DNA from: Lama guanicoe
Lineage: Eukaryota
NCBI GenBank assembly: GCA_013239625.1
Contig: MU053520.1
Location: 959,103-1,023,102, forward strand
Reading direction: 5' to 3'
DNA: 64,000 nucleotides
Shown: positions 5,481 to 64,000 of the stretch, piece after piece
How the letters are laid out: every line of letters starts with the position of its first letter
Position numbering within the stretch: the stretch's first letter is position 1
Notes under the pieces: generated by a model
What the model was told of the DNA's origin: nothing
The model's input: only the letters and a program-made list of their open reading frames with translations
Database searches by the model: none
Program-made: the position numbers and the translations under genes

Positions 5481-7681
5481 ATAAGCCTGCCACTTTTGAT
5501 GCCCTAGGGTGTGTGAGAAGCCAGTAACCAGGTCTTTAACTTTATCTTGCCAACTGAGGCTGTTTCTGTCTTGTTCAGGTGACATCTTGAGAGCCAACTC
5601 TATCTCTCTCCAGCACTCTCTGGGGAAAGAAAGAAGAGAATCTTCTCAAGTGATCAAAAATCCAAAAGTGACTGTTGACTGCTGCAAACCACATCCATCT
5701 TGATGACAAGCTTGTCCACATTCAAAAAAGCCTTCTAACCTGGGATCAGTATTTCTTTTAACCTATGATTTAAGTTTGTATTCTCTTTCTTAAACTAAAA
5801 TAAACTAAAATTATCCATGTTTTCTCTTTTCAAATGTGCTTGCATTAAGCATTCCTTAATTCCTTTGAATCTCCTGATGATCTTGAAGTGACGTAATATA
5901 ATGTCCAAGGAAACTACAGAAAATAATTCTTCAACAAATATTAACACACATGCATAGAATACATGGGATGCATGTTTACAAGTACATGCTATTATACTTG
6001 TGTTCCTATTAAATATAAGATATGTGTGAATGTAATATATGAGTGTACAATTATATAAACTCCTCTGAAAACCTAGAAACAATTAATAGTGTTTAGCACT
6101 AATAAGTCTTTCAGTTGGGCCTCAAAAATAATGTCCTTTGAATGAGCAAATAAAGCATATAATACTGACTCTTCCCCGTATATCAGGACTGTGTTAAAGA
6201 CTCAGTGAAAAATAGGCATAAAGGCTTTTTAAATCCTTAGAGAAAGTTTTGTGTAAACCCTTTTTGTATTTGCATACCTCATATGTATGCTAATAACAAA
6301 GTTTCTTTGGAGATGATTTTCTGCTCAGGGCACTATATATTGAAGGTGATATCAGTTTTGTTTATCTTGTGAGAAAATAAGGCAACATTCGTATATCAAG
6401 AAGAATAACACACAAGCTCAAAAACAGTCACAAAAGAAAAAATGATGTATTATTTTAATAACATTTTGCATTCTTTTTGCACATTTTATCATAAAGATCA
6501 ATAAAATGTCCCAACTGATAATAAATGTAGGAATTATTCAACCTCCTGTCTTAACAAATTGTCTCAGGAATGGAAGACAATAACTGTATTTTTACCCACC
6601 CAGCCACGCAGCTCAACAATTTATGCTAGAAAATCCAAATCTCAAGAAGAATTGTAGACTTTCCAGGAGCGATGTCAGTCAGAGCTTGAGTCAGGGAGAG
6701 GCTGACCCAAGAAAGTAATCAAAATCCACATAGTAGGGTGTTGCACCTTGAAATATAAATCTAGTTTTTAACAAATAGAAATACAATCTATGGCAATTGC
6801 TCATTGTTGTTTTCTTAAACTTTCAAAATAGGACTTTATCACATACGTTTCAAAGTTACTGACACAAAGTAAAAGGGGGCGAATTAAGGACTTTCCCACA
6901 GTTAGCCTAACTTCTTCTAGTGGGTGGGGGTGATGAGATGTCTCCCTGAGAGTTCCTAGCACACTGAGAATGTGCTATGTGATTCTTACACAGTCTATCC
7001 ATTGCAAAGCTCTCCATCTTCAGTGAAATAACAACCTCCTTCCGGCGTGTTGTTGCTAGGTTACCAGTAAATAGAGCTCCCGTAGTGCAATATATTCATA
7101 CAGGAAGAGTCAGGAGATAAGTAAGAAAATAACTACAATAACTCTGTCATGCTTATGCAACTGGATGCATTAATATACATCCAGAGGCATTTTTCTAGGC
7201 AGAAGGAAGAAAGATTTATTTTCCATTTTGAATCTTCTTAGTAATTGAGTGTCTCCCCTATATCCCAAACACCTTGAAAGCATTTCACTTAAAGACACTG
7301 CTTAATCCAAAAGTCTAGATTCCTGGATTTCTCAATCAATATTGCCGCTGATTGGCTCGAGTGCTGACATTTGACAGAGAAAAATTACAAATGTCATTTT
7401 TGGAGGGGACCTTGAGTTTACATATTCTAGCCCACAACCTTAAAAAGAAGTTCAAACTAACTCAGTTTGAAGGATCATGTGGTTTATTATGGAAGGGGTC
7501 CACCAGACAATGCTGCTTCTACTAAGGGCTCAGTGTAGTTAATACATTTACTTGCCTTTGTTATACAAACTCATGGCCATTTATGTACTATAATCACTGG
7601 ACAAAACTTTAAACATGAGATGCCCATGCCAGGAACTTGTAGATGGGGCCTGGCATCAATATGTTTTAAAAGCTCCATTGG

Positions 7682-8040
7682 ATAGTGGGCTGGGGCTGCC
7701 TGAGCCACTGGTCCTGCACAGAGATGCTTCAAAGCCTTGTTAAGAATGTTTGGATCCTCATGAAGCCCTACTATGCCCAAGTTTACCAAGAGATTTGGGT
7801 AGGTATGGGGTTGATGGGCTGCGTCTTTTATAAAATCAGGAGTGCTGATAAAAGAAGTAAAGCCTTGAAAGATCCCAGTCCTCTGCTTGCTCATGGCCAC
7901 CATTAGCCAGCTTTAAATGGAAAGAACATTGTTCTGGCTGTATTGGTTGGGGATGTGGGGCATCGTGTTGGCTGGAAGACATTCTGCTGCCCTCATGCAT
8001 GAATAAACATACCTCTGAGATCCTCCCCCACCAAAAAAAA
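7682..8040 (+). pseudogene. ATP5MJ: processed retrocopy of ATP synthase membrane subunit j / 6.8 kDa proteolipid (ATP5MPL, C14orf2) mRNA
   Basis: Intronless, with short 5' UTR, ORF 7724-7906, AATAAA 8002-8007 and A-run 8033-8040. TSD AAAAGCTCCATTGG (7668-7681) vs AAAAATTCCATTGG (8036-8049). TTTT/AAAA L1-endonuclease-type site at 7664-7671. Confidence 0.93.
7724..7906 (+). CDS. ATP5MJ: intact 60-aa ORF of the ATP5MJ retrocopy (expression unproven)
   Basis: [60 protein letters not shown] matches the 6.8PL family pattern (MLQS..K..W..MKPYY...YQEIW.G.GLM....[13 protein letters not shown]...GHH). No stop or frameshift; purine at -3. Confidence 0.45.
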
Positions 8041-8910
8041 TTCCATTGGTCAATATGATGAGCAATTTGATTTGCAAAGTAGAGACTTGTCAGCCTGCAG
8101 ATCATCAAATAGCACATTCTTCCTTCAGAAGGTTTTAAGATGAAAGGGCAGAGGAACATATACATTTAGAATTGTGCATGATTCTGTTAATATTAGTAGA
8201 ATATCAAAATCACAATATGTCAAGAGGGAAAATCTTAAATGAATTTATTTCTTTCACCAGGCCTCTCCTATCTTTTTCATTCACACTCAAGAAATTATAT
8301 TGCTTTAGAGAAAATAAAAGGACAGAATGAGCAACTAACTCCATCTGTAAATTTTTTTAAATAAAGCTAGATTCCAAAATTGCACCTCTAAAGTGTGAAT
8401 TCGGGATTTGAACATTTTTGCAAATGAAGGGTAAAAAATAAAACCTACCAGAAAATGGAAAATAAAATCTTTTCCACTTACCACTTTATAAAAGTGACTG
8501 TAAAAATGTGCAAAAAAATGTGCAAAATCACCAGTGATATTCATGCAATCCCTGAAAAATAGGTTTGAGTAGGCTAGAGGATTAAATACGAGTGGAACTG
8601 TGTGAATTATGCATAACCAAAAAAAATAATCCAAAAGGGTATAGAATGTACTGAATTTTTTAAGTTCTATTTTTCTATATTGATGGTTCAGAAAGGAGGG
8701 ACGCATTTTTTCCTTTTTTTTTTTTTCTCCACTTTACAAAAAGAGGTCTTATTCCTTAGTCCCTCATCATAGACACTCAGGTTAAGTAGTAAAAACTATT
8801 GATAACTTTCCCTTCAGGAAAACTCAGAAAAGTGCAGATCTAGTAGGATTCTCAACATTTGAAAGAGAAATTTTTTTGAATTTATATTTTTCCCTTTCAG
8901 TTTTTTTTAT

Positions 8911-9112
8911 TTTAACCTCTGGGCGGGAAACCCTGCAAGATAAAAACCAAGTTTTTCCTCTAATTCTTAGATGGAAATCACCAGCTTGTTGACTCTCAGT
9001 TTTTGTTTGTTTGTTTGTTTGTTTGCTTTAACCTCTGGGCTGGAAACCCTGCAAGACAAAGACCAAGGTTTTCCTCTGATTCTTAGGTGGGAACCACCAG
9101 CTTGTTGACTCT
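8911..9112 (+). repeat. ~86-bp direct duplication (8911-8996 and 9027-9112) separated by (TTTG)n
   Basis: TTTAACCTCTGGGC.GGAAACCCTGCAAGA.AAA.ACCAAG.TTTTCCTCT.ATTCTTAG.TGG.AA.CACCAGCTTGTTGACTCT occurs twice. Confidence 0.9.
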
Positions 9113-9424
9113 AGCTGCCTTTCCTCTGCATTATCAGCCTCAGGCTGACCAGTCAGCTGCCTCTGGGAAGAGGACTGAATTGCATTCAGGCCTGTCAGAG
9201 TGGCCTCTGATTCCTCCAACCCTCAGGCAAAGGCTTCAAAGTCTATCCTCGAGCTCTGGCCTTGCCCCCACCTTGTACTTGAATGTTTCCCAAAATCCAA
9301 GATAGAATTTTAGCACAAATCAAACAGTGAGGAGCTTGTGGAAAATGAATATTCTTGACTGGCAACAGTTCCTAACAAGGAGCCATCTATGTTTCAGAGC
9401 TTGTCACTAGCACTGAATGTCCAC

Positions 9425-9650
9425 ATCTGTGTACGTGCATAGAAAACTCTGGAAAAGTAATGTACTTCACTGGTAACAGTGGTTATCTCTGGGACAGGGA
9501 GTGGGATTGAAGTCGGTGGTTGAAGTAACTTTCATTTGTTTTATAGTATTTTAATTTTGTATAATTAATTTATAATTTGAAATGTGTAATGTTTAATTTT
9601 ATATCAATAGTTAATGTGAATTTAAAATATACTTAACATTAAATAGAACA
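9425..9650 (+). mobile_element. ancient L1ME-type 3'-end fragment
   Basis: GCATAGAAAACTCTGGAAAAG...GGTAACAGTGGTTATCTCTGGG...GTGGGATTG. Confidence 0.55.
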
Positions 9651-10639
9651 AAAAGTTCTATGGAATATTCTGTAAAATAGGGCTTTATCTTTATCTTGCA
9701 GGGTTTACCGCCCAGAGGTTAAAAAAACAAAACTTAAAAATGTCAAAAGCAGAAATTCAAAAAGATTTCTCTTTCGAATGTTGAGAGTCCTACTAGATCC
9801 TCACTTTTCTGAGTTTTCCTGAAAGGAAAGTTACCAATAGTTTTTACTACTTAACCTGAGTGTCTATGATGAGGGACTAAGGAATAAAACCTCTTTTTGT
9901 AAAGTGGAGGAAAAAAACTAAAAACATTTGTCCCTCCTTTCTGAACCATCAATACAGAAAAATAGAATTTAAAAAAATCAGTACATTCTATACCCTTTGG
10001 GATTATTTTTTTGGTCATGCATAATTCACACAGTTCCACTCATATTTAATCATCAAACCTATTTTTCCAGGATTGCAATGCCAGTGGTGATTTTGCACAT
10101 TTTTTACAGTCACTTTCATAAAGTGGTAAGTGTTGCCTACTGACCCAAAGGACTAGGTTGATTACAGATTTTATAATATTGTTAATGAACATAAGGTAGG
10201 CGGGAGGGAGGATATGCGTGTGATCCCCAGTTCTCCATTTCCATTCCATGACATCAATGAGATGGCACATAACTTCAAAATCCTCTCCAAACAGTGCTCC
10301 AAAAGGCCACTACTAATCTGTAAGTGCTGGCCCATACTACCATATAAAGTCTTCTCTGGTGGCCTGTTTCTTAATGAAGCAGACACTAAACCTCTGTACT
10401 GGGTCTTCTTTCTGTGAGGGTGTATCTGAGTAGCTCAGGGAGCTTTCCCAAGTTCCAACATTAGAAAGTCTGATTTTGTGCAAGTATGATTAGACCTTGG
10501 GTGCACCTGTTGCAGACAAAACCCCCAACTGATTCTGATAAGCTGGCTATGAATTGTCATTATGAATCCAGCTCTTTTGCCCCTTTCCCTGTCTGCCCAT
10601 TCCTGTCTCCCTCTAATCCTAGAGGAAACTAATTATAGG

Positions 10640-11084
10640 AATGAGATCACTGTGCAGTTTAACCGAACTCTTGACTTATGCTCTACTGAATGCACACAAT
10701 ACCTCGTCTAACCTGTTAATTATTTTCCAAGATTAAAAAATAAAGTAAGAATAAAGAACTAAGTAAAGAATGACTAGCTCTCTACCCCCAATTCTGCGGA
10801 CAGATTGCTAGGGCAAGATAACATCTTTCTCCAGATGAGGAGCCAGCCAGTCTACACGCAGTGGGGAATGATGCAGACAGAATCTATCCCCCTGCCTTGA
10901 TGATCCACTTTCCCCCTTTTCCACTTGAAAATTGTTGTGGCCAAGTAGACTCTTCAGGACACAAGTCTACCATCTCCCCCAGATTGCTAGCTTTCTGATT
11001 AAAGCATCTTTTTCTTTTTACCAACACTTGCCTCTCGAGTATTGGCTTTTGAGTGGCAAGCAGGCAAATGTGAGTTTGGTAACA
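10640..11084 (+). mobile_element. ERV1-class LTR (5' boundary uncertain)
   Basis: ATTAAA signal followed by U5-like ACTTGCCTCTCGAGTATTGGCTTTTGAGTGGCAAGCAG...GAGTTTGGTAACA terminus. Confidence 0.7.
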
Positions 11085-23890: not shown

Positions 23891-24033
23891 TTTTTTTTTG
23901 TGGAGAGAAAGGTAATTAGGTTTTCTTACTTATTTATTTAAAAAATTTGTGTTTATAAAAAGAGGTGTTGGGGATTGAACCCAAGACCTCTTGCATGCTA
24001 AGCATGCATTCTACTGCTGAGCTGTGCCCTCCC
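23891..24033 (-). mobile_element. tRNA-derived SINE, Vic-1-like (camelid)
   Basis: T tail, AGGTAATTAGGTTT.CTT.TTTATT, then GGGGATTGAACCCA.GACCT...CATGCTAAGCATGC..TCTAC..CTGAGCT (antisense B/A boxes). Confidence 0.85.
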
Positions 24034-26119
24034 ACAACACACACTTTGTTTTAATCACTTCATCCTCAGCATCTTGCAGACTTCCCAGCATGCAGGAGGG
24101 CCTAGTAAATGCTTGAATGAATGATATAACAGAGTGAGTGAATTTGCAAATAAAAATATTAAGACTACTGTAGTAACAGTGTGGTTTCATGGAAAGACCA
24201 TGAGCTTCAGAGTCAGACAACTTCATCACTTGGGGCCTGAACAAGTCATTTAACTTCTAAACTGAAAGCACAAACGCATTGGTGACTCTACTTTTATACG
24301 TTTAACCCAAACCGCTTCTCTGAACTACAGCACTTTGCAAATCACTCTTTGGCTGGGTGAACACTCAGTTCATCTTGTTAAGTTCCAATATTTATTTTTT
24401 AAAAATCAGCTATTCCTTCAATCATGCTTTATACAACAGATGGCAAAATATATTTGATTCATATCTGAATAATATCATGACCAGCTAGCAATAAAGAAGA
24501 TAGATTTAAGTAATGCCTTTGTTTTCTTCCTGAGGAGTTTTTCAAAGATGGAAGCGAGTGGAAGTTTTTGTTGCTACCATTGCTTTTGAAGCTTATCTGT
24601 TTGTTTGTTTTTAAATTCCCCTTTGTGTTCAGGCTTCAGAGCTGGAAAATAAATCTGACACCAGCTTTATTCTGTTGTATAAATAGTGAGCTTGAGAAAT
24701 GAAATCTCTTTATACTTTTACCATAGATTTACTTAAAACAAGGGTAAGAAGGATAAGAATTTATGTCCCTATGTCTTAGGGTACTATTTTGAGAGATGTT
24801 GGGATATTTCAATTAATATGATTTGAAGAACGCTCCCTGATCATTTGACTCACCAGTGGTGGACCACCATCCTGTCTCACCAAACAGAAGTCCTTTAGAT
24901 CACTTTCCTGGCCTGATGGCTTCCTGGGCAGGCCAGTGTTCCCTCTCATGCAGCTATACAAAATTCTCACGCTTTTTTCAGTGGCCTCCAAAGACCCAGA
25001 GTCTTGAATTGGAAGGGATTTTTCCCACATCCTCTTTCTCTTCTTGTATTATTTCACCAAGCTTCCCCCATTCAGAAACCTTAAGTCAAAACTAGTCGTG
25101 AGTGTGCCAGTAAGCCCCTTAGTGCAGAGTCCGCACATCAAAACATTTCATGTTTATGATCCATGTCTCTCTCTCTCTCTCTTTCTCTCTCCATAGACTA
25201 TAAGTTTCAGGAGTGCACAAATTTGTCTTTTCAAAACCTTTTTCCTTGATGTATCCATTCTATCTAGAACAGTGAATGCAGACTGAATGAGTGAATCATT
25301 TCCCATATATAACATGTGGGATCCATGCAAAGTTAATACCTATCATTTTGCTCATGCTGAATATGCGACAAATCCAAGAAATGCCCTTGACTTGAAGATC
25401 TGAAAAACCTTGCTATGGTCATGTGTGTGGGTACTGAATGATACACAATGCCAAAGCCTTGCAAGAGAAAAAATAAAGAAAACTAGAAAGGATAATGATC
25501 ACCATGGGCTTACACAAAATATCTTGTAGTTACAGTATCCTACTTTAAACCGATAGCAGTTTAATTCCACTTGCATAGAAAACTCTGCACTTTTCCTTCT
25601 CCCCTCTCATTATACCACAGTTTATATCTAATTATTTTCCATATTCATGAAAAATAACTATAAATTTTAGTTATAGCTATTTTTAATACTTGTATCTTTT
25701 AACTTTGATACTATAATTAAAAGTTATATAACTAGTACCATTATAGTAGCATCCTATTCTGTATTTGTCCATATATTTACCTTGATCAGTGAGCTTTATG
25801 TTTTCTTATGCTGTCACAGCAGGAGATCATGGCTCTGGGCTGCTGAAGTTTGACCATAACACTAGTGAGCAAACACAGCACTGCTACATTTTTCTCACAA
25901 TAGGAAATAGGAAAGTAGCCAGAAAGGTGTATTTGATAATGAAAAGCACAAAAATACAGTTCCAGGAACATGAATGGAGAGAGATGGGGTACTTAGACAT
26001 GCACTGATGACATAATTACAACAATGTAACAACCTCTCTTCTCCCCATTAGTCTAAATTCTCACCAATGAATCACTATACATCACATGGCCAGATGAATT
26101 TTATAGTACATTTTCCTAT

Positions 26120-26222: not shown

Positions 26223-27412
26223 TTGAAAAACAAAATTATTTATATAGACAAGAACCCACAGAAATATTTGTTCAAGGTCAGCACATCCTGGATGGTCCCT
26301 GCCTATATTAGTTACAAATTATAATCATAGTGTACAAATAATTGTGTCTCCTGCTATACCATAAATATTAATTTTGCCATGCAGAGACTTCATAACATTT
26401 TTTTAATGATGGCTTCATACTAGTACAGGAAGTGGATATATCACAATTTGTGTACTAATCCTCGTAATATTCAGCATTTTATTTGGTCTGTGCACTCATT
26501 TTTTGTTTGACCTTTTCATTTTTCTCTCATTAGTTTGTTTGGCTGTGCCTTGAAAGTTGTTTTCTTCCCCTCATTTATCTTTTGATTTTTTTCTACTCTT
26601 GTCTTAATTCCTTGTGTAAATTTTGCTCCTTCATTAATGACTTGGTTATTTATAGTTAGTATTTTGTTTCAGTCTTTGTCTATACATACTTAAATTTATC
26701 TTCTCATCATAAACTGACAGACCGATCCTGCTCTGGCTTCCAGAAGGAAAGCAATCCTTCTCTCCTATAAGATATCCATTGGCTTTTTCTTTCTTTTTTA
26801 TTTTTTTTCCTGGTTTTAATACCAGTTAGCACTAGCTCTCCCTCTGCCACATTTTGAACTTTTGAGAAATGAATTTTGGTTATCACTATAGTGCAATCTG
26901 TATTTTATTCTATGCTGAACTTGTAATTTCTTGCCCTCAACTCACTCAGAGTCAGAAAGCCCTTCTAAGCCTTGACTACAGGAAATTCTTACTCATTTTT
27001 AAAACTTATGCTTAGATATCACTTCTATGAGGTTTTTCTTGCCCTTACTCTCCCGACTCTCAGGCAAAATTGTTTCCTCCAATGCCTATGGTTTATAAAG
27101 ATCTATTTTACTGTGTGGGTCTCCCTCAAGCTCTAGTTGGAGCTTTGAGTGTAGCAGGCTGGTTCTGCTGGCTGTTGTATCTCTCACACTCAGCACAACT
27201 CATGGTGCTTCATAGCTGATCAATGGATGCCTCGCTGTATAACTGTTTATCATAAGAAACACAAAAATTCAAATCTATTTTCCATCCCAATTACTTTCTG
27301 TTTCATTTTGTTTAATATTTTTATTTTAACTCTAAAATATTTTAATTAGGCACAAAGGTACAGAAAACAATGCCACAATCATTCATGCATCTACCTCTGA
27401 AATTAAAGAGAT

Positions 27413-27535
27413 TTTTTTTAGTGTGGAAGAAAGTAATTAGGTTTACTTATTTATTTTTGGAAGAGGTACTGGGGATTGAACCCAGGACCTTGTGTATGCT
27501 AAGCCAGCACTCTACCACCAGAGCTATACCTCCCC
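27413..27535 (-). mobile_element. tRNA-derived SINE, Vic-1-like, with 16-bp TSD
   Basis: Same body as the 23891 copy. TSD CTGAAATTAAAGAGAT (27397-27412) / CTGAGATTAAAGAGAT (27536-27551). Confidence 0.9.
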
Positions 27536-27944
27536 CTGAGATTAAAGAGATCTTAATAGTTTCCACTATTTGCTTTTCACATCTTCCTATTTTAAAATAA
27601 ACAAAACATTACAAATATCACTAAAGCCTCAATATCCCTCAGGTCTCCTCTCCTCCTTCCCCCCCTTTCCAGGGCTAGTGCCCTGCAGTTGGTGTATATC
27701 ATTCTCATGCAGGCTTTTTAACATTTAAATATAGATATTGCTGTGTTGTGTGTTTAAAAAGAAATCTCAAAATTATATTGAGAAGAAAAAATGTGATAAT
27801 TTTTTACCACTACCTTCCATTATTAGACCTGCATTTTAGGATGCATGAACAAGAAAATCAAACAAATGAATAAATAAGCTTCCACATCTATAATCTTAAT
27901 GGCTGTATTCAACTCCTGATATCATACTTTTTTAATTTATGTAT

Positions 27945-30850: not shown

Positions 30851-30870
30851 CAACTGTAAGATGCGTCTTT

Positions 30871-32224
30871 TGGAATAAAGACAGTCTCTTCAGCAAATAG
30901 TGTTGGGAAAACTGGACAGCAGCATGTAAAGCAATGAAGCTAGAACTCTCCCTTACACCATACACAAAAATTAACTCAAAACGAATCAAAGACTTAAACA
31001 TAAGACAAGATGCAATAAACCTCCTAGAAGAAAATATAGGCAAAACATTATCTGACATACATCTAAAAATGTTCTCCTAGAACAGTCTACCCAAGCAATA
31101 GAAATAAAAGCAAGAATAAACAAATGGGACCTAATTAAACTTTTAATCTTCTGCACAGCAAAGGAAACCATAAGTAAAACAAAAAGACAACCTATGGAAT
31201 GGGAGAAAATTTTTGCAAATGAAACTGACAAAGGCTTGATCTCCAGAATATATAAGCAGCTCATACGACTTAATAAGAAACAACCAAACAACCCAATCCA
31301 AAGATGGGCAAAAGACCTAAACAAACAATTCTCCAAGGAAGAAATATAAATGATCAATAAGCACATGAAAAAAATGCTCAATATCACTAATTATCAGAGA
31401 AATGCAAATCAAAACTACAATGAGGTATCACCTCACACCAGTCAGAATGGCCATCATTCAAAAGTCCACAAATGACAAAGGCTGGAGAGGCTGTGGAGAA
31501 AAGGGAACCCTCCTACACTGCTGATGGGAATGCAGTTTGGTGCAGCCACTGTGGAAAACAGTATGGATTCCTCAAAAGACTAGGAATAGACTTACCGTAT
31601 GACCCAGGAATCCCACTCCTGGGCATATATCCAGAAGGAACCCTACTTCAGGATGACACCTGCACCCCAATGTTCATAGCAGCACTATTTACAATAGCCA
31701 AGACATGGAAACAGCCTAAATGTCCATCAACAGATGACTGGATAAAGAAGAAGTGGTATATTTATACAATGGAATACTATTCAGCCATAAAAACTGACAA
31801 CATATTGCCATTTGCAGCAAGATGGACGTTGCTGGAGAATGTCATTCTAAGTGAAGTAAGCCAGAAAGAGAAAGAAAAATATCATATGAGATCACTTCTA
31901 TGTGGAATCTAAAAAAACCCAAAACATAAATACAAAACAGAAACAGACTCATAGACAGAATACAAACTTGTGGTTGCAAAGAGAGTGGGGGGTGGGAAGG
32001 GACAGACTGGGATTTCAAAATTAGAATAGATAAACAAGATTATATTGTATAGCACAGGGAAACATATACAAGATCTTGTGGTAGCTCACAGCAAAAAAAA
32101 AAGCGACAATGAATATGTATATGTTCATGTATAACTGAAAAATTGTGCTGTTCACTGGACTTTGGCACAACATTGTAAAATGACTGTAACTCAATAAAAA
32201 CAATGTTAAAAATTAAATTAAATT
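30871..32224 (+). mobile_element. young 5'-truncated L1: disrupted ORF2 C-terminus, 3' UTR and A-rich tail
   Basis: Translation includes [58 protein letters not shown]. It carries an in-frame stop and frameshifts, then AATAAA and an (AAATT)n tail. Confidence 0.95.
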
Positions 32225-44136: not shown

Positions 44137-47100
44137 GGAGTGATGTCACCAAGATGATGGAGTAGGACATCCCAGCCTCTAACCCCTGACAAAGAAAATC
44201 ACATAGACAGCTATCGACGAAGAGCAACAGCTCCAGAAGCACTCAGGAGTCCCCTTAATAAGCTTCTGCAACACAGTGGAGCAAAAGCAAACAAAAAAAC
44301 AAACAAACAAAATAAAAATGAGAACAAAAGTCTTGCAAATAATTACATAAAGCCTGTAGGAAGGATAGTTCTTTTTGCATCCTGCCATCCCCAGGCAGGC
44401 ACTACTGTGTGACAAGATGGAAATTTTTTTCACTAGGAAAAGGAAAACAGGGTGAGCAACCAGCTTCCTAAGCTTTCTGGGGCGCTGCACCAAGGACCTG
44501 CCTCAGCTTCCCACCACCCAGAGACCAGCTAAGATGCCTAGTGACTCACAGGGACAAGGAAGAAAGACAGGGACTGTGAGTATCAGGCATGTGGTGGAGT
44601 GGTCATGGTTCCCAGTGGCCTGCTCAGCAGAAGACCACAGCATCCTTTGCTGCTGAGGATCTTGGTAGCCTGTGTGGGTGGCATGGACTCCCACAGCTTA
44701 CACACTGGGGACCCTGTTGTGGAACCCAGTGTACTGTTCTGCAGAGGGCCCTGGTAGCTTTTGCCACTGAGGAAACCAACGGCTAGCATAGCTGCTCCAG
44801 ATACCCTGAAGATTTCACCACTGAGGGCCCCACAGGTTTCTGTGTTCACAGACTCCACCTGTTTGAGTCCATCCCCACCCTGCCAGCCAGAGCTACTCCA
44901 GACAGCAGTGCCATGAATGCCCTGGGCCCTGGAGTTCACGTCTGAAGACATTCCTGGCCTCTGTGGCTACACAAGTACACAATGCTGGCTCAGGCCTCTG
45001 TGGGCAACCCCCACTGCCATGCATGCACCTGCAGCTAGCCCTGCAGTCACAGGCGTGCACACACCAATAGCCCAGGCCCTTGCAGCTGCTCAAGCACCCA
45101 GGGTCAGCCCCAGCTTCTGTCACTGGCCTTCTCCTTGTGGCACACCTGGATATCACCAGCCCAGACTCTCGTCACCAGCCTCCACTGCCATGCACATGCT
45201 TGTGACTAGCCCCTGCAGACACATGAGTGCATGCTGACAGCTGACTCACCCACAGCTGTTCATGTACCAGGAGCTGGTCCCAGTCACTTTCTAGACCTAC
45301 ACCAGCATGCATGCCTGCAGCTAGCGCCTGCTGCTGCACAAGTGCACACCAACGTCTTGGGTCTCCACAGCTGCTCATGCACCTACAGTTAGCCTTAACT
45401 CCGTAGCTGGTCCTGACACTCACTACTGCACATGCTCATGCAACTGGTCCTTGCTGCCATGTGGGCACTCACAGCCAGACCGCACTGTCAAGTGTATACA
45501 TACCACCAGTTCCAGCCATCACTGCCACCTGCCCTGTTTCCTGGCCACTGAGACTGGAGGTGACACCAAGGGCTTCAAAAGCCCTCACCATGGACCTGCT
45601 GCATCTCTCACCACTAAGGACCATGCAGTTACTGGTGTCATGGGCCCCAGCTATCTTAGCCAACAAGGCACTATGCCATCTCAGACCTAGAACCGACATT
45701 TGCCCCTATGCATGGCATACCACACAACGAAGTCCAGGACAACAGTACACTCACAGGTAAATATCTTTGCTTATCAAAGTCAGTCCATAAAACCTGGAAG
45801 AAGTGACTGCTTCTTCAAATATACAGACAACTGCACAAAGCAATGGAGATCACAAGGAATCAGGCAAACATGATAATACCAAAGGAATACAGTAAACTTC
45901 CAGTAATTGACCCCAAAGAAATGGAGATCTATGCACTGCCTGACAAATACTTCAAAATAACTGGCTAAAAGAAGCTCAAAGAGCTCCAAGAGAACACAGA
46001 TAAATAATCTAACAAAATCAGGAAAACAGTACAAGAACAAAAAATGTTCAACAAAGAAATAGAAAACATAAAAAAGAACCAAACAAATTTTGGAGCTGAA
46101 AATCATGACTAAATTTAAAAAGGCAATAAAGTACTTCAACAGAAGACTCAATCAAGCAGAAGAAAGAATCATTGAACTCAATGATAAGTCATTTGAAATT
46201 ATCCAGTCAGAGGAGAAAAAAAAAACATGAAAAGAAATAAGAAAGTCTATGGGTCTTAAAGGACTTCATCAAATAAAATCATATTTGCATTATGGGAGTC
46301 CCAGAAGGAGAAGAGAGCAAGGCAGAAAGTTGATTTCAAGCCATACTGGCTGAAAACTTTCCTAATTCAGGGAAAGATATGAACACCTAGGTACATGAAG
46401 CTCAAAAGTCCCCAATCAGCTTCAACCCAAAGAAGATTTTACTGAGACATATTTCGATAACTTTGATTCAAAAATCAAAGACAATGAGAGAATCTTGAAA
46501 GCAGCATGAGAAAAAAAAAGGCTCATCACATACAAAGGAATCCCTCCCCCAACCCAAGGATATCTTTCCTCCAAGATTTCTCAGCAGAAACTTTGCAGAT
46601 CCAGAGAGAGTGGGATGATATATTCAAAGCACTGAAAGGAAAAAAAAATGTCGACCAAGAATACCTTCAACAACAAAGCTATCCTTTTAAATTGAAGGAG
46701 AGAGAAACACATTTCCAGACAAGCCAAAGCTGAAGGAGTTCATCACCACTACACCTGCCTTACAAGAAATGCTAAAGGGAGTTCTTTAAGCTAAAAAAAA
46801 AAAAAAGGTTGCTAACTAGTAACTGAAATCATATGAAAATATAAAACTCATTGCTAAGGTAAATATATAGTCACATTCAGAAGACCCTAAGATTGTAACA
46901 ATGGTGTGTAAGTCACTTATGATTGTAGTACATAGGTTAAACAATAAAAGAATTTAAAAATAACTATAGCAAGAGTAATTTGTTAATGGATACACAATGT
47001 AAAAAGATATAAATTGTGATATCAAAAACATAAATGTTGGGTGAGTAAAGATATAGAGCTTTGGTATGCAAACAAAGTTAAACTGTTATCAGCTTAAACT

Positions 47101-47335
47101 AGACTGTTAGAAGTATGACATATTTTATGCAAGCCTCATGCAAACACAATGCAAAACCCTATAGCAGATACCCTATATACTATGGTGTATTTCCTCTGAG
47201 AAAGGAATCAAAGCTTACCATTATAGAAGATCATCAAATTATAAAAAAAGACAGCAAGAGAGGAGAAAGGATCAAAAGAGCTACAAAACACTTGGAAAAC
47301 AATGAACAAAATGTCAATGAGTCCTTACCTTCCGC
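44137..47335 (+). mobile_element. older L1 5' portion: 5' UTR, degenerate ORF1 (~45870-46790) and inter-ORF region, ending at the ORF2 start
   Basis: Starts CACCAAGATGATGGAGTAGG. ORF1 motifs include GGAGTCCCAGAAGGAGAAGAG and DFSAETLQIQREWDDIFKALK. Ends AATGAACAAAATG...AGTCCTTACCT. Confidence 0.88.
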
Positions 47336-49450: not shown

Positions 49451-50343
49451 ATACATATATTTTCCACATTAAAAAAAAAGGTTATTTCTGAAAGTCTTAG
49501 CAGCAAGAAGAGTAACAAAAGGAGAGATGGACCAACAAAACAGAAGGAGGTTGTGTCCTGTAGGACTTGACTTCATTCTTCAATCAAGTTCTTTATAAGA
49601 GTGAGCAAACATGACTGTTCACACAGTGGCTCAGTGAGTCTCTGTCTCATGGAGTTCCTTCTGGTCCAGCCTGCAGCCTCCACTGAAGCCAATCCAGGAT
49701 GGCCACAAAGTGTGCCTCCTTTCTCCAGCCAGTCATGTGCATTTTGTATAGCTGTGACTTGGAACAACAGTCATGTTTCATAAACCCTTCATATATCTTA
49801 AAATATAAATAATCTAAACCAACTGGGATGTGGAGATTATAATCTCTCTCCCCAAACTAAGAAGGAATTGGGCCAAGCAAATCTTTTGTCAATAAAGAAT
49901 GAAAAGTTAAGTAAACATTAAGCAAATAATTGGTCCTATTAAAAAAGTCAATAGCTTTTAAGAATAAAATTAACTCATGGGTTTTTGAAGAAGTTTTAAA
50001 AGTCTGTTTCTAAATCCTGCATGCCACAAGAGACTGGAATAAAACTTACACAGCATCTTTTTTTCCCTTTTGAGATGAGGGAATATTCAACAAAGGAAAA
50101 ACAACATGGATTCTCTAAAATAAGTAGGAAACATGGGATGGTCATACAATAGAGAGATATGGAAGGTTTACAGATTATTTTTAAAAAGCAAGAAAAAAAA
50201 GTGCCATATTAGAACTCCAAATGACATTCTAAAGCACTACATGTAAACCACATCAATATTTGAAATACAAAAAAGAAAAAACTGCAACCTGATGAGAGAG
50301 TTAAATTTACAGATCGAAAGACTCAGTATAAAAGGCAATGTTA

Positions 50344-51421
50344 CCAGAAGTAAAACAAGAAGACAACCTACGGAATGGGAGAAAATTTTTGCAAATGAAA
50401 CCAACAAAGGCTTGATCTCCAGAATATATAAGCAGTTCATATGACTCAATAATAAAAAAAATAAACAACCCAATCCAAAAATGGGCAGAAGTCCTAAACA
50501 AGCAATTCTCCAAGGAAGACATACAAATGATCAATAAGCACATGAAAAAATGCTCAGTATCACTAATTATCAGAGAAATGCAAATCAAAACTACAATGAG
50601 GTATCACCTCACACCAGTCAGAATGGCCGTCATCCAAAAATCCAAAAATGACAAATGCTGGAGAGGCTGTGGAGAAAGGGGAACCCTCCTACACTGCTGG
50701 TGGGAATGCAGTTTGGTGCAGCCACTATGGAAAACAGTGTGGAGATTCCTCAAAAGACTAGGAATAGACTTACCATATGACCCAGGAATCCCACTCCTGG
50801 GCTTGTATCCAGAAGGAAATCTACTTCAGGATGACACCTGCACCCCAATGTTCATAGCAGCACTATTTACAATAGCCAAAACATGGAAAAAGCCTAAATG
50901 TCCATCAACAGGTGACTGGATAAAGAAGAGGTGGTATATTTATACAATGAAATACTACTCAGCCATAAAAACTGACAACATAATGCCATTTGCAGCAACA
51001 TGGATGCTCCTGGAGGATGTCATTCTCAGTGAAGTAAGCCAGAAAGAGAAAGAAAAATACCATATGAGATCGCTCATATGTGGAATCTAAAAAACAAACA
51101 AACAAACAAAAACAAAATGTAAATACAGGACAGAAATACACTCATAGACAGAGAATACAGACTTTTGGTTGCCAGGGGGGTGGAGGGTGGGAAGGGATAG
51201 ACTGGGATTTCAAAATTGTAGAATAGATAAACAAGATTACACTGTATAGCACAGGGAAATATACACAAAATGTTATGATAAATCACAGAGAAAAAAATGT
51301 GACAATGAGTGTGTATATGTCCATGAATGACTGAAAAATTGTGCTGAACACTGGAATTTGACACAACATTGTAAAGTGACTATAAATCAATAAAAAATGT
51401 TAAAAAATCCATGTTACAAAA
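50344..51421 (+). mobile_element. young 5'-truncated L1 with an open ORF2 C-terminal 187 codons (50527-51090), 3' UTR, A tail and 14-bp TSD
   Basis: ORF includes [20 protein letters not shown] and [33 protein letters not shown] (50330-50343) / AAAAGGCAACATTA (51422-51435). Confidence 0.95.
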
Positions 51422-55270: not shown

Positions 55271-56274
55271 AAGGAGTAGCTGACAGACGGGACTAGGGCT
55301 CAGACCTCCTTCATCTCTATCTAGTCCTAGTGCATGGTGTCATTTCCAGTTTTCAGCTCTCTGTTTTCTAGACTAAAGCGCCTTCCGCCTTTTATGTTCC
55401 CATTCCTTACAGGGAGTTAATTGATCTGTATGAACTTCATCTTCCCCTAAATTTCAAAACCCCAACATTTTTGAAATTTATGGGCAATATCTTGAAGTTT
55501 CAGAAAGGGTTTCAAAATCTTCCCTAAAATTTTCATGATAAATTGATATTGTTCAGTATTGGAGAAAAAATGTATGTCTAAGCTTTGCAGAATTTTCTAG
55601 TGTTTATATTATAAATATATTTGGAGGAAAATGAAATCTATGGGTTTTTTTTTCTGTGAAGATTTTTTTTTAATAGAAGGGCCATTAAAGAAATGGTTTT
55701 GGTTTTATTTTCTTTTTCACAAGGTTCCTCAAAGTCTAGTTGCTTTCTTTTCTTTCTGATATTGTTCCTGCTCCTCCTGTACCAGAGACCCAGGCTTCAA
55801 ATAGCACTGCAGCTTTAAATGAAAACAACCGGAGTCATTGCCCTGGCAACGGAACCTCATAAAGTCCCCACACAGCACTTCTAATTCCACAAGGCTTGAA
55901 ACTAAATAGCATGGAGGTTGGAGCTCTGGCCTTGGACTCTTTCAGTAAAAGAATTCATTGAAATTGCTATTACAATTAGGCTGTTTCATGTGAGAGCAGA
56001 GTGTGGGAACCTCAGATATCTACTGTGAATGTGACAAATGTAGATTTGTGCAAATGAATCACATTTGGTCACATGACCAACTCTAGGTAAACATCTGCTC
56101 TTTACATTTTTTAATGGAAACTGAGTTTGAGGAAGCCTCACACTTTAGGCTGTAAGGAATAAAATCTGTGATACTGGAAAACTCACCATATGTCTTCCAC
56201 TCCTAAGCATCTTTCTTTTTTTTTTTTAACTTTAGTTCTCAAACTTCCTCTCTTAGGCATATGACAAAAAATAC

Positions 56275-56600: not shown

Positions 56601-56941
56601 TTTTCTTTTTTTTTTTTTTTCTTTTACTTTAGTTCTCAAACTTCCTCTCTTAGGGTATATGACAAAAAAGACACAAATTGTAAAAACTTCTTTAGTAGAA
56701 GGAACATGAAAGTGTTAGTTCAAATCCCCATTCCTTTTATTATTCAGTATTGTGCATTATCACATAGATTGGAAGTTGAAATTTGGAAATGCAGCCATGT
56801 AGTAGCTACTTCCTCACTCCATAGTCAATCCTACGCCAGTGGCTGGAGTTCATTCATTCACTGAGTCACTTGTGCATGAAAGTAAAGTGAAGCAGGTGTG
56901 CCTGTTGTGTTTGCTGCATTAGAGGTTCAACATGATGGAAC

Positions 56942-63577: not shown

Positions 63578-63731
63578 CAGTGGTTTTCAGATTTGGGTTT
63601 ATCTGCATCATCTTGTTAAAACACAAATTTCTGGGCCTATCCTAGACACTCTAGATCAGAAATCTGCGTCTCTAACAGGCTCCCAGTGATGCCAGTTCTG
63701 CTGGTCCACAGACCACACTTGAAGAACCATT
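63578..63731. mobile_element. MER5A-like hAT MITE
   Basis: CAGTGGTTTTCA...TCTAACAGGCTCCCAGTGATGCC...GCTGGTCCACAGACCACACTTGAAGAACCA. Confidence 0.8.
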
Positions 63732-64000
63732 CTCTGACATACATCTCAAAAATGTTCTCCTAGGACAGTCTACCCAAGCAATAGAAATAAAAGCAGGAAT
63801 AAACAAATGGGACCTAATGAAACTTACAAGCTTCTGCACAGCAAAGGAAACCACAAGTAAAACAAAAAGACAACCTACAGATTGGGAGAAAATTTTTGCA
63901 AATGAAACCAACAAATATATAGGCAGCTCATATGACTTAATAAGAAACAACCAAACAACCCAGTCCAAAAATGGGCAGAAGATCTAAACAAGCAATTCTC
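63732..64000 (+). mobile_element. young 5'-truncated L1 ORF2 fragment running off the window
   Basis: Closely matches 31051-31333 (TCTGACATACATCT...CAGTCTACCCAAGCAATAGAAATAAAAGCA...AAACAAATGGGACCTAAT). Confidence 0.92.

What the first reader, a model, noticed from the sequence alone, without database searches (positions are those of the whole stretch)
8475..10132. Long inverted repeat (~450-bp arms) of unrecognised sequence, able to form a long dsRNA stem or cruciform
Seen: 8475-8944 is the reverse complement of 9690-10132. It includes a perfect 53-bp block (8749-8801 / 9835-9887), and by hand count about 8 mismatches over the ~155 bp around it, with more indels toward the ends. I do not recognise the arms as a SINE, LINE or MITE, and no TSD flanks the outer ends, so it looks like a local inverted duplication rather than two TE copies. 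Established: transcribed inverted repeats are ADAR/Dicer substrates (hairpin endo-siRNA loci), and palindrome arms can be homogenised by gene conversion. Inference: a candidate hairpin-RNA locus or an arm-converting palindrome. It begins only ~435 bp after the retrocopy's poly(A), so read-through would traverse it.
Basis: partly seen in the sequence, partly recalled or inferred. Interest (0 to 1): 0.75.

Follow-up and report, generated by a model that had tools for sequence, protein, structure and literature searches.

The report
Old local inverted duplication, camelid
A 450-base piece of ordinary single-copy DNA was copied once, back to front, 745 bases from its original in an ancestor of camelids and has been decaying since; it is probably a harmless repair accident, with the oddity that the copied piece starts and ends at splice-signal-like motifs.

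Summary
The inverted repeat is real: 8475-8944 against 9690-10132, 406 of 440 aligned bases identical, no target-site duplication. Contigs of two independent DNA runs hold both arms at equal depth, with three of the four junctions, and show no long third copy, so it is neither a misassembly nor a young transposon. A relative about 5% diverged already has the right arm joined to the spacer, so the event is older than that split. At 5 of 9 arm differences the relative's right arm still carries the left-arm base: both arms have mutated independently, and the 53-bp perfect block is within chance (P 0.16-0.63). Conversion is not needed, though one site fits it. A 100-bp tandem duplication overlaps the inner breakpoint and marks the left arm as template. 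Best reading: a one-off template-switch insertion, roughly 17-34 million years old, with no shown function. Transcription, editing and small RNAs could not be tested.

The parts
8475..8944 (.). Left arm, the inferred template (older copy)
   Evidence: Alignment; outer junction seen as loose end in runs X1 and X4; its inner 48 bp continue into 8945-8996 in the same way as in the tandem copy, so that adjacency is the old one
9690..10132 (.). Right arm, the inferred inverted insertion; no TSD, no poly(A) tail
   Evidence: inner junction bridged by contigs of X1, X4, X19, X20 and outer junction by X1, X4
8945..9689 (.). Spacer, 745 bp, with no significant self-complementarity in its unique part; 9430-9600 resembles an old L1M 3' end (recalled, no call)
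8749..8801 (.). 53-bp exact block (partner 9835-9887); length within chance
8897..8996 (+). First unit of a 100-bp head-to-tail duplication that contains the inner breakpoint of the inverted copy
   Evidence: 11 differences in 95 bp
8997..9112 (+). Second unit of the tandem duplication, lengthened by a TTTG run; carries a third copy of the acceptor-like motif (minus strand)
8482..8932 (-). Exon-like unit in the left arm, from acceptor-like AG (rank 103 of 8611) to donor-like GT (rank 32 of 6468); stops in all three frames; use as an exon not shown
8482..8551 (-). Small exon-like cassette inside the unit (weaker acceptor, rank 541 of 8611); 70 nt in the window, 58 nt in runs X1 and X4
   Evidence: homologous stretch in P0002
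9702..10125 (+). Exon-like unit in the right arm (acceptor rank 51 of 8611, same donor)
7674..8049 (+). Neighbouring processed retrocopy of the mitochondrial 6.8-kDa proteolipid gene (PF08039) with an 8-bp TSD; context only, not part of the repeat

Best explanation
One germ-line repair or replication accident. At a break or stalled fork between 9689 and 10133, the free end switched to the opposite strand about 750 bp upstream, copied about 455 bp of the left arm backwards, and rejoined the original track, leaving an inverted copy with no target-site duplication. The 100-bp tandem duplication around the same breakpoint comes from the same episode or the same fragile site. Shown: two copies only, real junctions, left arm as the older adjacency, age above the split from a 5%-diverged relative, independent substitutions on both arms. 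Inferred: the template-switch route, the age of roughly 17-34 million years, and neutrality. The locus could fold into a long duplex if transcribed, but nothing shows that it is or that the pairing is maintained.
For: Both arms at equal depth with separate junctions in two DNA runs of two studies (20.8 vs 19.1; 17.9 vs 17.1), and only 22 and 21 contigs laid at 80% likeness, the 8 listed for each being the arms, spacer alleles and flank. No TSD; no homology between the outer flanks or the spacer halves above 200 shuffles. Relative X19/X20 differs by 37 of 726 bases (5.1%) over spacer, arm and flank alike. Of 9 arm differences in 9753-9917 its right arm has the left-arm base at 5, a third base at 1 and no listed difference at 3; branch counts 5.5, 3 and 1.5 fit equal rates (P 0.29). 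Polarised by hand with P0001 and P0002, 10 changes fall on the left arm and 3 plus two deletions on the right. G-U-compatible changes are 8 and 11 of 19 transitions on the two strands, no bias (P 0.65). An insertion near and inverted to its template is the described signature of microhomology-mediated templated insertions (PMC8421209, passages), and local clusters of direct and inverted junctions are described as local n-jumps (PMC7025897, passages).
Against: Microhomology is thin: 2 bp at the inner junction and only against the tandem copy's version of the template, 0 bp at the outer junction. The empty site was not seen in any run (no joints). It does not explain why both ends sit at splice-signal-like motifs on one strand (1e-4 to 4e-3 for tolerances of 15-25 nt, up to 0.03 at the loosest settings; post hoc, crude matrices). 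At 9888 the outside homologue has the right-arm residue while the relative's right arm has the left-arm base, which needs homoplasy or a conversion. Homologues at 73-76% residue identity suggest 10-15% DNA difference, less than expected between camelids and ruminants (neutral figure recalled), a weak hint of constraint. The relative's left arm was not seen.
Confidence: 0.68

Rival explanations
1. Exon-unit copy through RNA. The left arm is an exon-defined piece of a minus-strand pre-mRNA. An RNA fragment running from the polypyrimidine tract to just past the donor (the stretch that U2AF and U1 would cover, recalled) was reverse transcribed and used as a patch at a nearby break, in inverted orientation. 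The patch is then antisense to the exon and both of its splice signals.
For: Both ends lie within 12-14 and 7 nt of strong splice-like motifs on one strand. No TSD or tail, as in class 2 templated sequence insertions, for which an RNA origin has been argued (PMC5110952, parts 1-2 of 4 read). The donor GT appears kept in P0002, which ends in Trp where the window reads Trp-stop across the donor (stop inferred).
Against: No host gene found: no Pfam match in 91 plus 18 open frames except L1 and the retrocopy, none in six read-through frames. The published insertions came from distant loci, not nearby ones. The coincidence was noticed after the fact, T-rich tracts attract breakpoints anyway, and the overlapping tandem duplication points to a DNA-level event.
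Confidence: 0.11
2. Ancient pair with concerted evolution. The arms are old head-to-head paralogous exons whose introns diverged beyond recognition, while gene conversion kept exon and splice signals alike until about the camelid radiation.
For: Would explain sharp ends at splice signals and unrelated flanks; few differences predate the split in 9753-9917 (at most 3 of 9); site 9888 is discordant.
Against: No coding signal or protein relative; the arm diverges from the relative at the rate of the spacer; the arms have drifted apart by 7.7% with changes on both; the tandem copy shows the left-arm adjacency twice.
Confidence: 0.1
3. Functional hairpin-RNA locus (ADAR or Dicer substrate), transcribed by read-through from the retrocopy or another promoter and kept paired by selection.
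For: Predicted fold of -787 (plus) and -799 (minus) kcal/mol with 410-415 arm-to-arm pairs; uninterrupted helices up to 53 bp on plus and 108 bp on minus. The repeat has lasted longer than the split from the relative.
Against: Any such repeat folds this way. No bias to pairing-compatible changes, near-neutral divergence, five AATAAA between the retrocopy ORF and the arm, no Rfam match above threshold. Endo-siRNAs in oocytes were specific to mouse among 11 mammals (PMC10964541). In human and mouse only 7.8% and 5.7% of intergenic inverted duplicates were expressed, against 7.4% and 5.5% of mirror controls (PMC5398296, parts 1-3 of 6 read).
Confidence: 0.06
4. Terminal inverted repeats of a foldback or MITE-like DNA transposon, or two copies of one unrecognised repeat.
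For: Long arms around a non-coding spacer; Dfam and RepeatMasker were not available, so a very old repeat origin of the template is not excluded.
Against: No TSD; no long third copy at 80% likeness in two whole-genome runs (27 shorter pieces not shown); no other copy in 64 kb; homologues outside camelids are more distant than the arms are from each other.
Confidence: 0.03
5. Assembly artefact.
For: The window's left arm holds a 12-bp duplication near 8502-8513 that runs X1 and X4 lack; the left arm's inner junction lay at the edge of the laid stretch and was not bridged.
Against: Both arms, their distinguishing bases and three junctions are in independent runs.
Confidence: 0.01

Closest known systems
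Intergenic inverted duplicates of mammalian genomes (Chen et al. 2017, PMC5398296; parts 1-3 of 6 read)
   Same: Two reverse-complementary arms, spacer under 1,000 nt, predicted stable hairpin; falls in their longest arm class.
   Different: Arms of 450 bp of non-repeat DNA are far above their typical size (80% quantile 36 nt); expression is not shown here.
Microhomology-mediated templated insertions (MMB-TI; PMC8421209, passages) and local n-jumps (PMC7025897, passages)
   Same: Insertion near and inverted to its template, no TSD, second junction cluster at the same spot; germ-line examples exist.
   Different: About 450 bp copied from 745 bp away, where that search covered templates within 100 bp; microhomology 2 bp and 0 bp; fixed and old.
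Class 2 templated sequence insertion polymorphisms (PMC5110952; parts 1-2 of 4 read)
   Same: No TSD, no poly(A), size near the top of the 73-414 bp experimental range, donor left intact.
   Different: Their donors are distant; here the donor is 745 bp away and bounded by splice-like motifs.
Inverted Alu pair causing TBXT exon skipping (PMC10901737, abstract only)
   Same: An inverted pair that could pair in pre-mRNA and alter splicing, if a transcript crosses it.
   Different: There two intronic SINEs loop an exon out; here unique DNA would pair with the exon-like unit itself, and no host gene or splicing is shown.
Palindromes with arm-to-arm gene conversion (primate sex chromosomes; recalled, search listing only)
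   Same: Inverted arms around a spacer.
   Different: Arms here are 450 bp and 92% alike rather than many kb and above 99%; differences accumulate on both arms.

Membership tests
Local templated inverted insertion (template switch) | Insert is an inverted copy of nearby sequence, template intact | tested here: met
Local templated inverted insertion (template switch) | No TSD and no poly(A) tail | tested here: met
   TSD scan empty for the right arm; sequence
Local templated inverted insertion (template switch) | Microhomology of 2-12 bp at the junctions | tested here: inconclusive
   2 bp inner (only against the tandem copy's version), 0 bp outer; junctions are old
Local templated inverted insertion (template switch) | Empty site in an outgroup | not testable with these tools
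   The only relative laid already has the right arm; no outgroup DNA was found
Arm-converting palindrome | Arms more alike within than between species | tested here: not met
   Arm to arm 7.7% (5.5% in 9753-9917); window to relative 5.1% overall; the relative's right arm keeps the left-arm base at 5 of 9 sites. The relative's left arm was not seen; site 9888 is discordant
Arm-converting palindrome | Tract of identity longer than chance | tested here: not met
   P 0.16 and 0.63 for a 53-bp run
Hairpin endo-siRNA / ADAR substrate locus | Long duplex possible in one transcript | tested here: met
   (prediction only)
Hairpin endo-siRNA / ADAR substrate locus | Transcribed across both arms; 21-23 nt reads or A-to-I editing | not testable with these tools
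   Only contigs were available; strand and level cannot be read from them
Hairpin endo-siRNA / ADAR substrate locus | Pairing maintained by selection | tested here: not met
   8 and 11 of 19 transitions G-U compatible, P 0.65; low power
MITE / foldback DNA transposon | Target-site duplication | tested here: not met
MITE / foldback DNA transposon | Multiple dispersed copies | tested here: not met
   No long third copy at 80% likeness in runs X1 and X4; copies under 80% not tested
Duplicated exon | Acceptor and donor motifs in one orientation | tested here: met
   Ranks 103 of 8611 and 32 of 6468 with crude matrices
Duplicated exon | Spliced in RNA or matching a known protein | tested here: inconclusive
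   No protein match (short queries, weak searches); no suitable RNA data

The most novel reading that the evidence does not exclude
The ends are not chance: the copied unit is a real exon-defined piece of a minus-strand transcript conserved beyond camelids, and camelids carry a neighbouring inverted copy cut to that exon plus its two splice signals. It arose either by an RNA-templated patch whose limits were set by the splicing machinery, or by conversion confined to the exon. In pre-mRNA it would pair with the exon and hide both splice sites, a built-in antisense switch that silenced or tunes the exon.
Probability: 0.12. Interest if true: 0.75.

Novelty: new member of a known kind. Interest (0 to 1): 0.32.

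Why it matters
As a neutral relic it is one more dated example that short-spacer inverted repeats of unique DNA can persist for tens of millions of years without being homogenised or deleted. If the splice-bounded ends are real, it would be a natural case in which exon definition sets the limits of a germ-line duplication and creates an antisense mask for that exon, which is directly testable with a minigene and with cow and camel genomes.

Tried and rejected
No whole genome is held for this window, so copy number rests on laid contigs. No RNA holder was listed among 24 runs; this says nothing on expression. X19 and X20 are guessed RNA and carry adapter-like loose ends (SMART type, recalled); their long pieces cover 47% and 29% of the stretch, about what 0.9 of 2.0 billion letters would give anywhere, they show no joints, and their A-to-G differences have no matched DNA, so they were used only as a relative's sequence, not as evidence for or against transcription, splicing or editing. 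Rfam: one tRNA-like hit far away at gathering score, four sub-threshold hits near the repeat. A 132-aa stop-free frame across the left arm gave PDB hits at E 0.004 (aminopeptidase P) and 0.16 (MOB2); rejected, since the MOB2 match leans on a 12-bp duplication absent from two runs and the other rests on about 30 residues that include allele-variable bases, with domain E 0.069. Pfam, PDB, ESM Atlas and word searches of the arm frames found no family. A 22-nt arm pattern found nothing in metagenome or viral contigs; translated-pattern scans gave L001-L003, chance matches with no DNA likeness beyond one 27-bp hit. Residual homology between flanks: none above shuffles in 6 comparisons. Spacer inversion by crossover between the arms: not seen, the relative has a right-type and a left-type base side by side at 9800 and 9801. 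A crude exon scan listed 20 candidates in the window and ranked neither small cassette among them. Ten literature searches returned no listing on this locus or on an inverted copy bounded by splice signals; only aimed at that idea, and the library is partial. No supplements were read.

Full report
Observation. Positions 8475-8944 align to the reverse complement of 9690-10132 over 473 columns with 406 matches, 34 mismatches and 33 gap columns; it is the strongest inverted match in the window. The 53-bp exact block is at 8749-8801 / 9835-9887, but a run of that length arises in 16% of shuffles of the 42 difference events and in 63% when clustered events are merged. No target-site duplication flanks the whole repeat or the right arm. 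Folded as RNA, either strand pairs 410-415 bases between the arms, with uninterrupted helices up to 53 bp on plus and 108 bp on minus when G-U is allowed.

Context. The window is AT-rich mammalian DNA with L1 fragments; of 91 stop-free frames of 75 residues or more outside the repeat region, one matched Pfam, an L1 ORF1 domain. Just upstream is a processed copy of the mitochondrial proteolipid gene (PF08039, E 7e-36) with an 8-bp TSD at 7674-7681 and 8042-8049.

It is real and two-copy. Of 24 runs listed, 18 held half or more of the sampled words, under six organism codes. I laid 4 of them on 8945-10480, which holds the spacer, the right arm and the right flank, at 80% likeness. In DNA runs X1 and X4 single contigs bridge the inner junction (9278-9803, 9278-9786) and the outer junction (9983-10399, 10000-10399) of the right arm. 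A separate contig carries left-arm bases over 9983-10132 and runs on into the left flank, at the same depth as the right arm (20.8 vs 19.1; 17.9 vs 17.1). Only 22 and 21 contigs were laid; the 8 listed for each are arms, spacer alleles and flank, and 27 shorter pieces over all runs were not shown. So there is no long third copy at 80% or more. The left arm's inner junction was at the edge of the stretch and was not bridged. Both runs lack a 12-bp duplication in the window's left arm.

Age and conversion. Runs X19 and X20 come from a relative: 37 differences in 726 bases, 5.1%, spread alike over spacer (13 of 241), spacer plus arm (21 of 423) and flank (3 of 62), against 0-0.6% for the single-allele contigs of X1 and X4. 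I take it to be an Old World camel (inference from divergence). Its contigs 9495-9917 and 9579-9782 bridge the inner junction, so the right arm predates the split. In the cleanly aligned 9753-9917 the window's arms differ at 9 sites. The relative's right arm has the left-arm base at 5 (9776, 9801, 9824, 9834, 9888), a third base at 9787, and no listed difference at 9764, 9800 and 9910 (the table showed 40 of 79 rows, and the last three rest on its counts by kind of change). About 4.2 changes per branch are expected; the counts 5.5, 3 and 1.5 fit (P 0.29). The plain reading is that the arms were nearly identical at the split and have drifted independently since. With Camelini and Lamini at 16.3 (9.4-25.3) million years (PMC6899786, passage citing Wu et al. 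2014), 7.7% scales to about 25 million years (17-34 from counting error alone), and the clean segment to about 17. Against this reading: at 9888 an outside homologue has the right-arm residue while the relative's right arm has the left-arm base, which needs one homoplasy or a conversion in the relative's lineage, and its left arm was not seen.

Which arm is the template. A 100-bp unit (8897-8996) is repeated head to tail (8997-9112; 11 differences in 95 bp). It contains the inner 48 bp of the left arm and the 52 bp that follow, so that adjacency occurs twice, whereas the right arm's junction with the spacer occurs once. The right arm is therefore the derived copy. The two duplications do not differ significantly in divergence (P 0.22) and may be one event. 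Microhomology is 2 bp at the inner junction, against the tandem copy's version only, and 0 bp at the outer one. The outer flanks and the spacer halves share no homology above shuffles.

The arm is older than camelids. A profile of arm reading frames, searched against 1.84 billion proteins, hit 2 unnamed singletons. P0001 matches 38 of 52 residues of 9866-10021 in one frame, and P0002 matches 29 of 38 residues of 8628-8515. Neither has a Pfam match; I read them as spurious gene calls on homologous non-coding DNA. The front of P0002 looks like a translated ruminant Bov-tA SINE (recalled). Such identities correspond to about 10-15% DNA difference; they are unlikely at 5% (P 0.001 and 0.017) and at 22% (P 0.012 and 0.019). 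They are thus not camelid orthologues, and hint weakly at constraint, since the search returns only the best cases. Polarised by hand on these residues, 10 substitutions fall on the left arm and 3, plus deletions of 10 and 3 bp, on the right; the left arm is not the better conserved one in camelids.

The unexplained feature. Read on the minus strand, the left arm starts 12 nt before the first base behind a strong acceptor-like AG (exon start 8932; rank 103 of 8611 AG sites; the tandem and right-arm copies rank 15 and 51) and ends 7 nt into a donor-like GTAAGT at 8481 (rank 32 of 6468). With the repeat itself left out of the background, a random segment would do this with probability 9e-5 to 4e-3 at tolerances of 15-25 nt, and up to 0.03 at the loosest settings tried. 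The matrices are crude and from memory, and the test is post hoc. A weaker internal acceptor defines a cassette of 70 nt in the window, 58 nt in X1 and X4, 55 nt in the right arm and, by the residues of P0002, 57 nt and stop-free there. All three frames of both full units have stops, and no protein relative was found (short queries). I cannot show that it is an exon.

Mechanism. The best fit is a single template switch or break repair that copied about 455 bp backwards from 750 bp upstream and returned. An insertion near and inverted to its template is the stated signature of MMBIR-type templated insertions, which occur as germ-line variants (PMC8421209, passages), and local mixes of direct and inverted junctions are described in cancer genomes (PMC7025897, passages). 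The route is inferred; the empty site was not seen. An RNA-templated patch limited by splice signals, and an ancient exon pair under conversion, would each explain the ends but lack a host gene.

Function. Not shown. Transitions between the arms show no bias to G-U pairs (8 and 11 of 19, P 0.65). The retrocopy is a processed copy with five AATAAA between it and the arm. Oocyte endo-siRNAs were specific to mouse among 11 mammals (PMC10964541, abstract and passages), and expressed inverted duplicates barely exceed mirror controls in human and mouse (PMC5398296). A survey of camelid transposons puts DNA transposons at 2-3% of the genome and counts MITEs of 50-650 bp with TSDs (PMC8605555, passages), unlike this 1,658-bp structure.

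Verdict. A real, old, two-copy local inverted duplication of ancestral DNA, a new member of a known kind. Earlier notes of this scan list three similar unique-DNA inverted repeats in mammals (unchecked), so the class is not rare. Interest 0.32, carried mostly by the splice-bounded ends.

Noticed in passing
window 9087-9276: Runs X1 and X4, of different organism codes and studies, both carry two half-depth alleles here, one with 5-6 and one with 13 differences from the window in 250 bp, while the next 500 bp are a single contig. The alleles differ by up to about 16 sites, as much as the 5%-diverged relative does, and each shares bases with it; the window looks like a mosaic of the two. Eight differences were not shown, so a short inversion or cluster is possible.
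   Followed up: partly
window 10370-10480: A second pair of alleles in X4 with 1 and 5 differences in 111 bp, next to 400 bp identical to the window.
   Followed up: no
window 7674-8049: Processed retrocopy of the mitochondrial 6.8-kDa proteolipid gene (ATP5MJ, name recalled) with an intact 60-codon frame at 7724-7906, poly(A) remnant and 8-bp TSD.
   Followed up: partly
window 8502-8513: 12-bp tandem duplication in the window's left arm that X1 and X4 lack: private allele or assembly error.
   Followed up: partly
window 10508-11084: Solo-LTR-like element (TG...CA ends, ERV1-like 3' end, plus orientation; label recalled) 375 bp right of the repeat, no clear TSD; it would point away from the repeat but could end plus-strand transcripts.
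   Followed up: no
window 30860-32216, 50343-51408, 63725-64000: Three L1 3' fragments in the same orientation, 87-89% alike.
   Followed up: no
window 44140-47330: Old L1 5' region with GC-rich UTR and ORF1 remnant (PF17490).
   Followed up: no
window 27412-27537 and 23891-24035: Two tRNA-derived SINE copies; one scores as tRNA in Rfam.
   Followed up: no
window 56212-56274 and 56609-56672: 63-bp direct repeat on both sides of a 326-N gap, probably overlapping contig ends.
   Followed up: no
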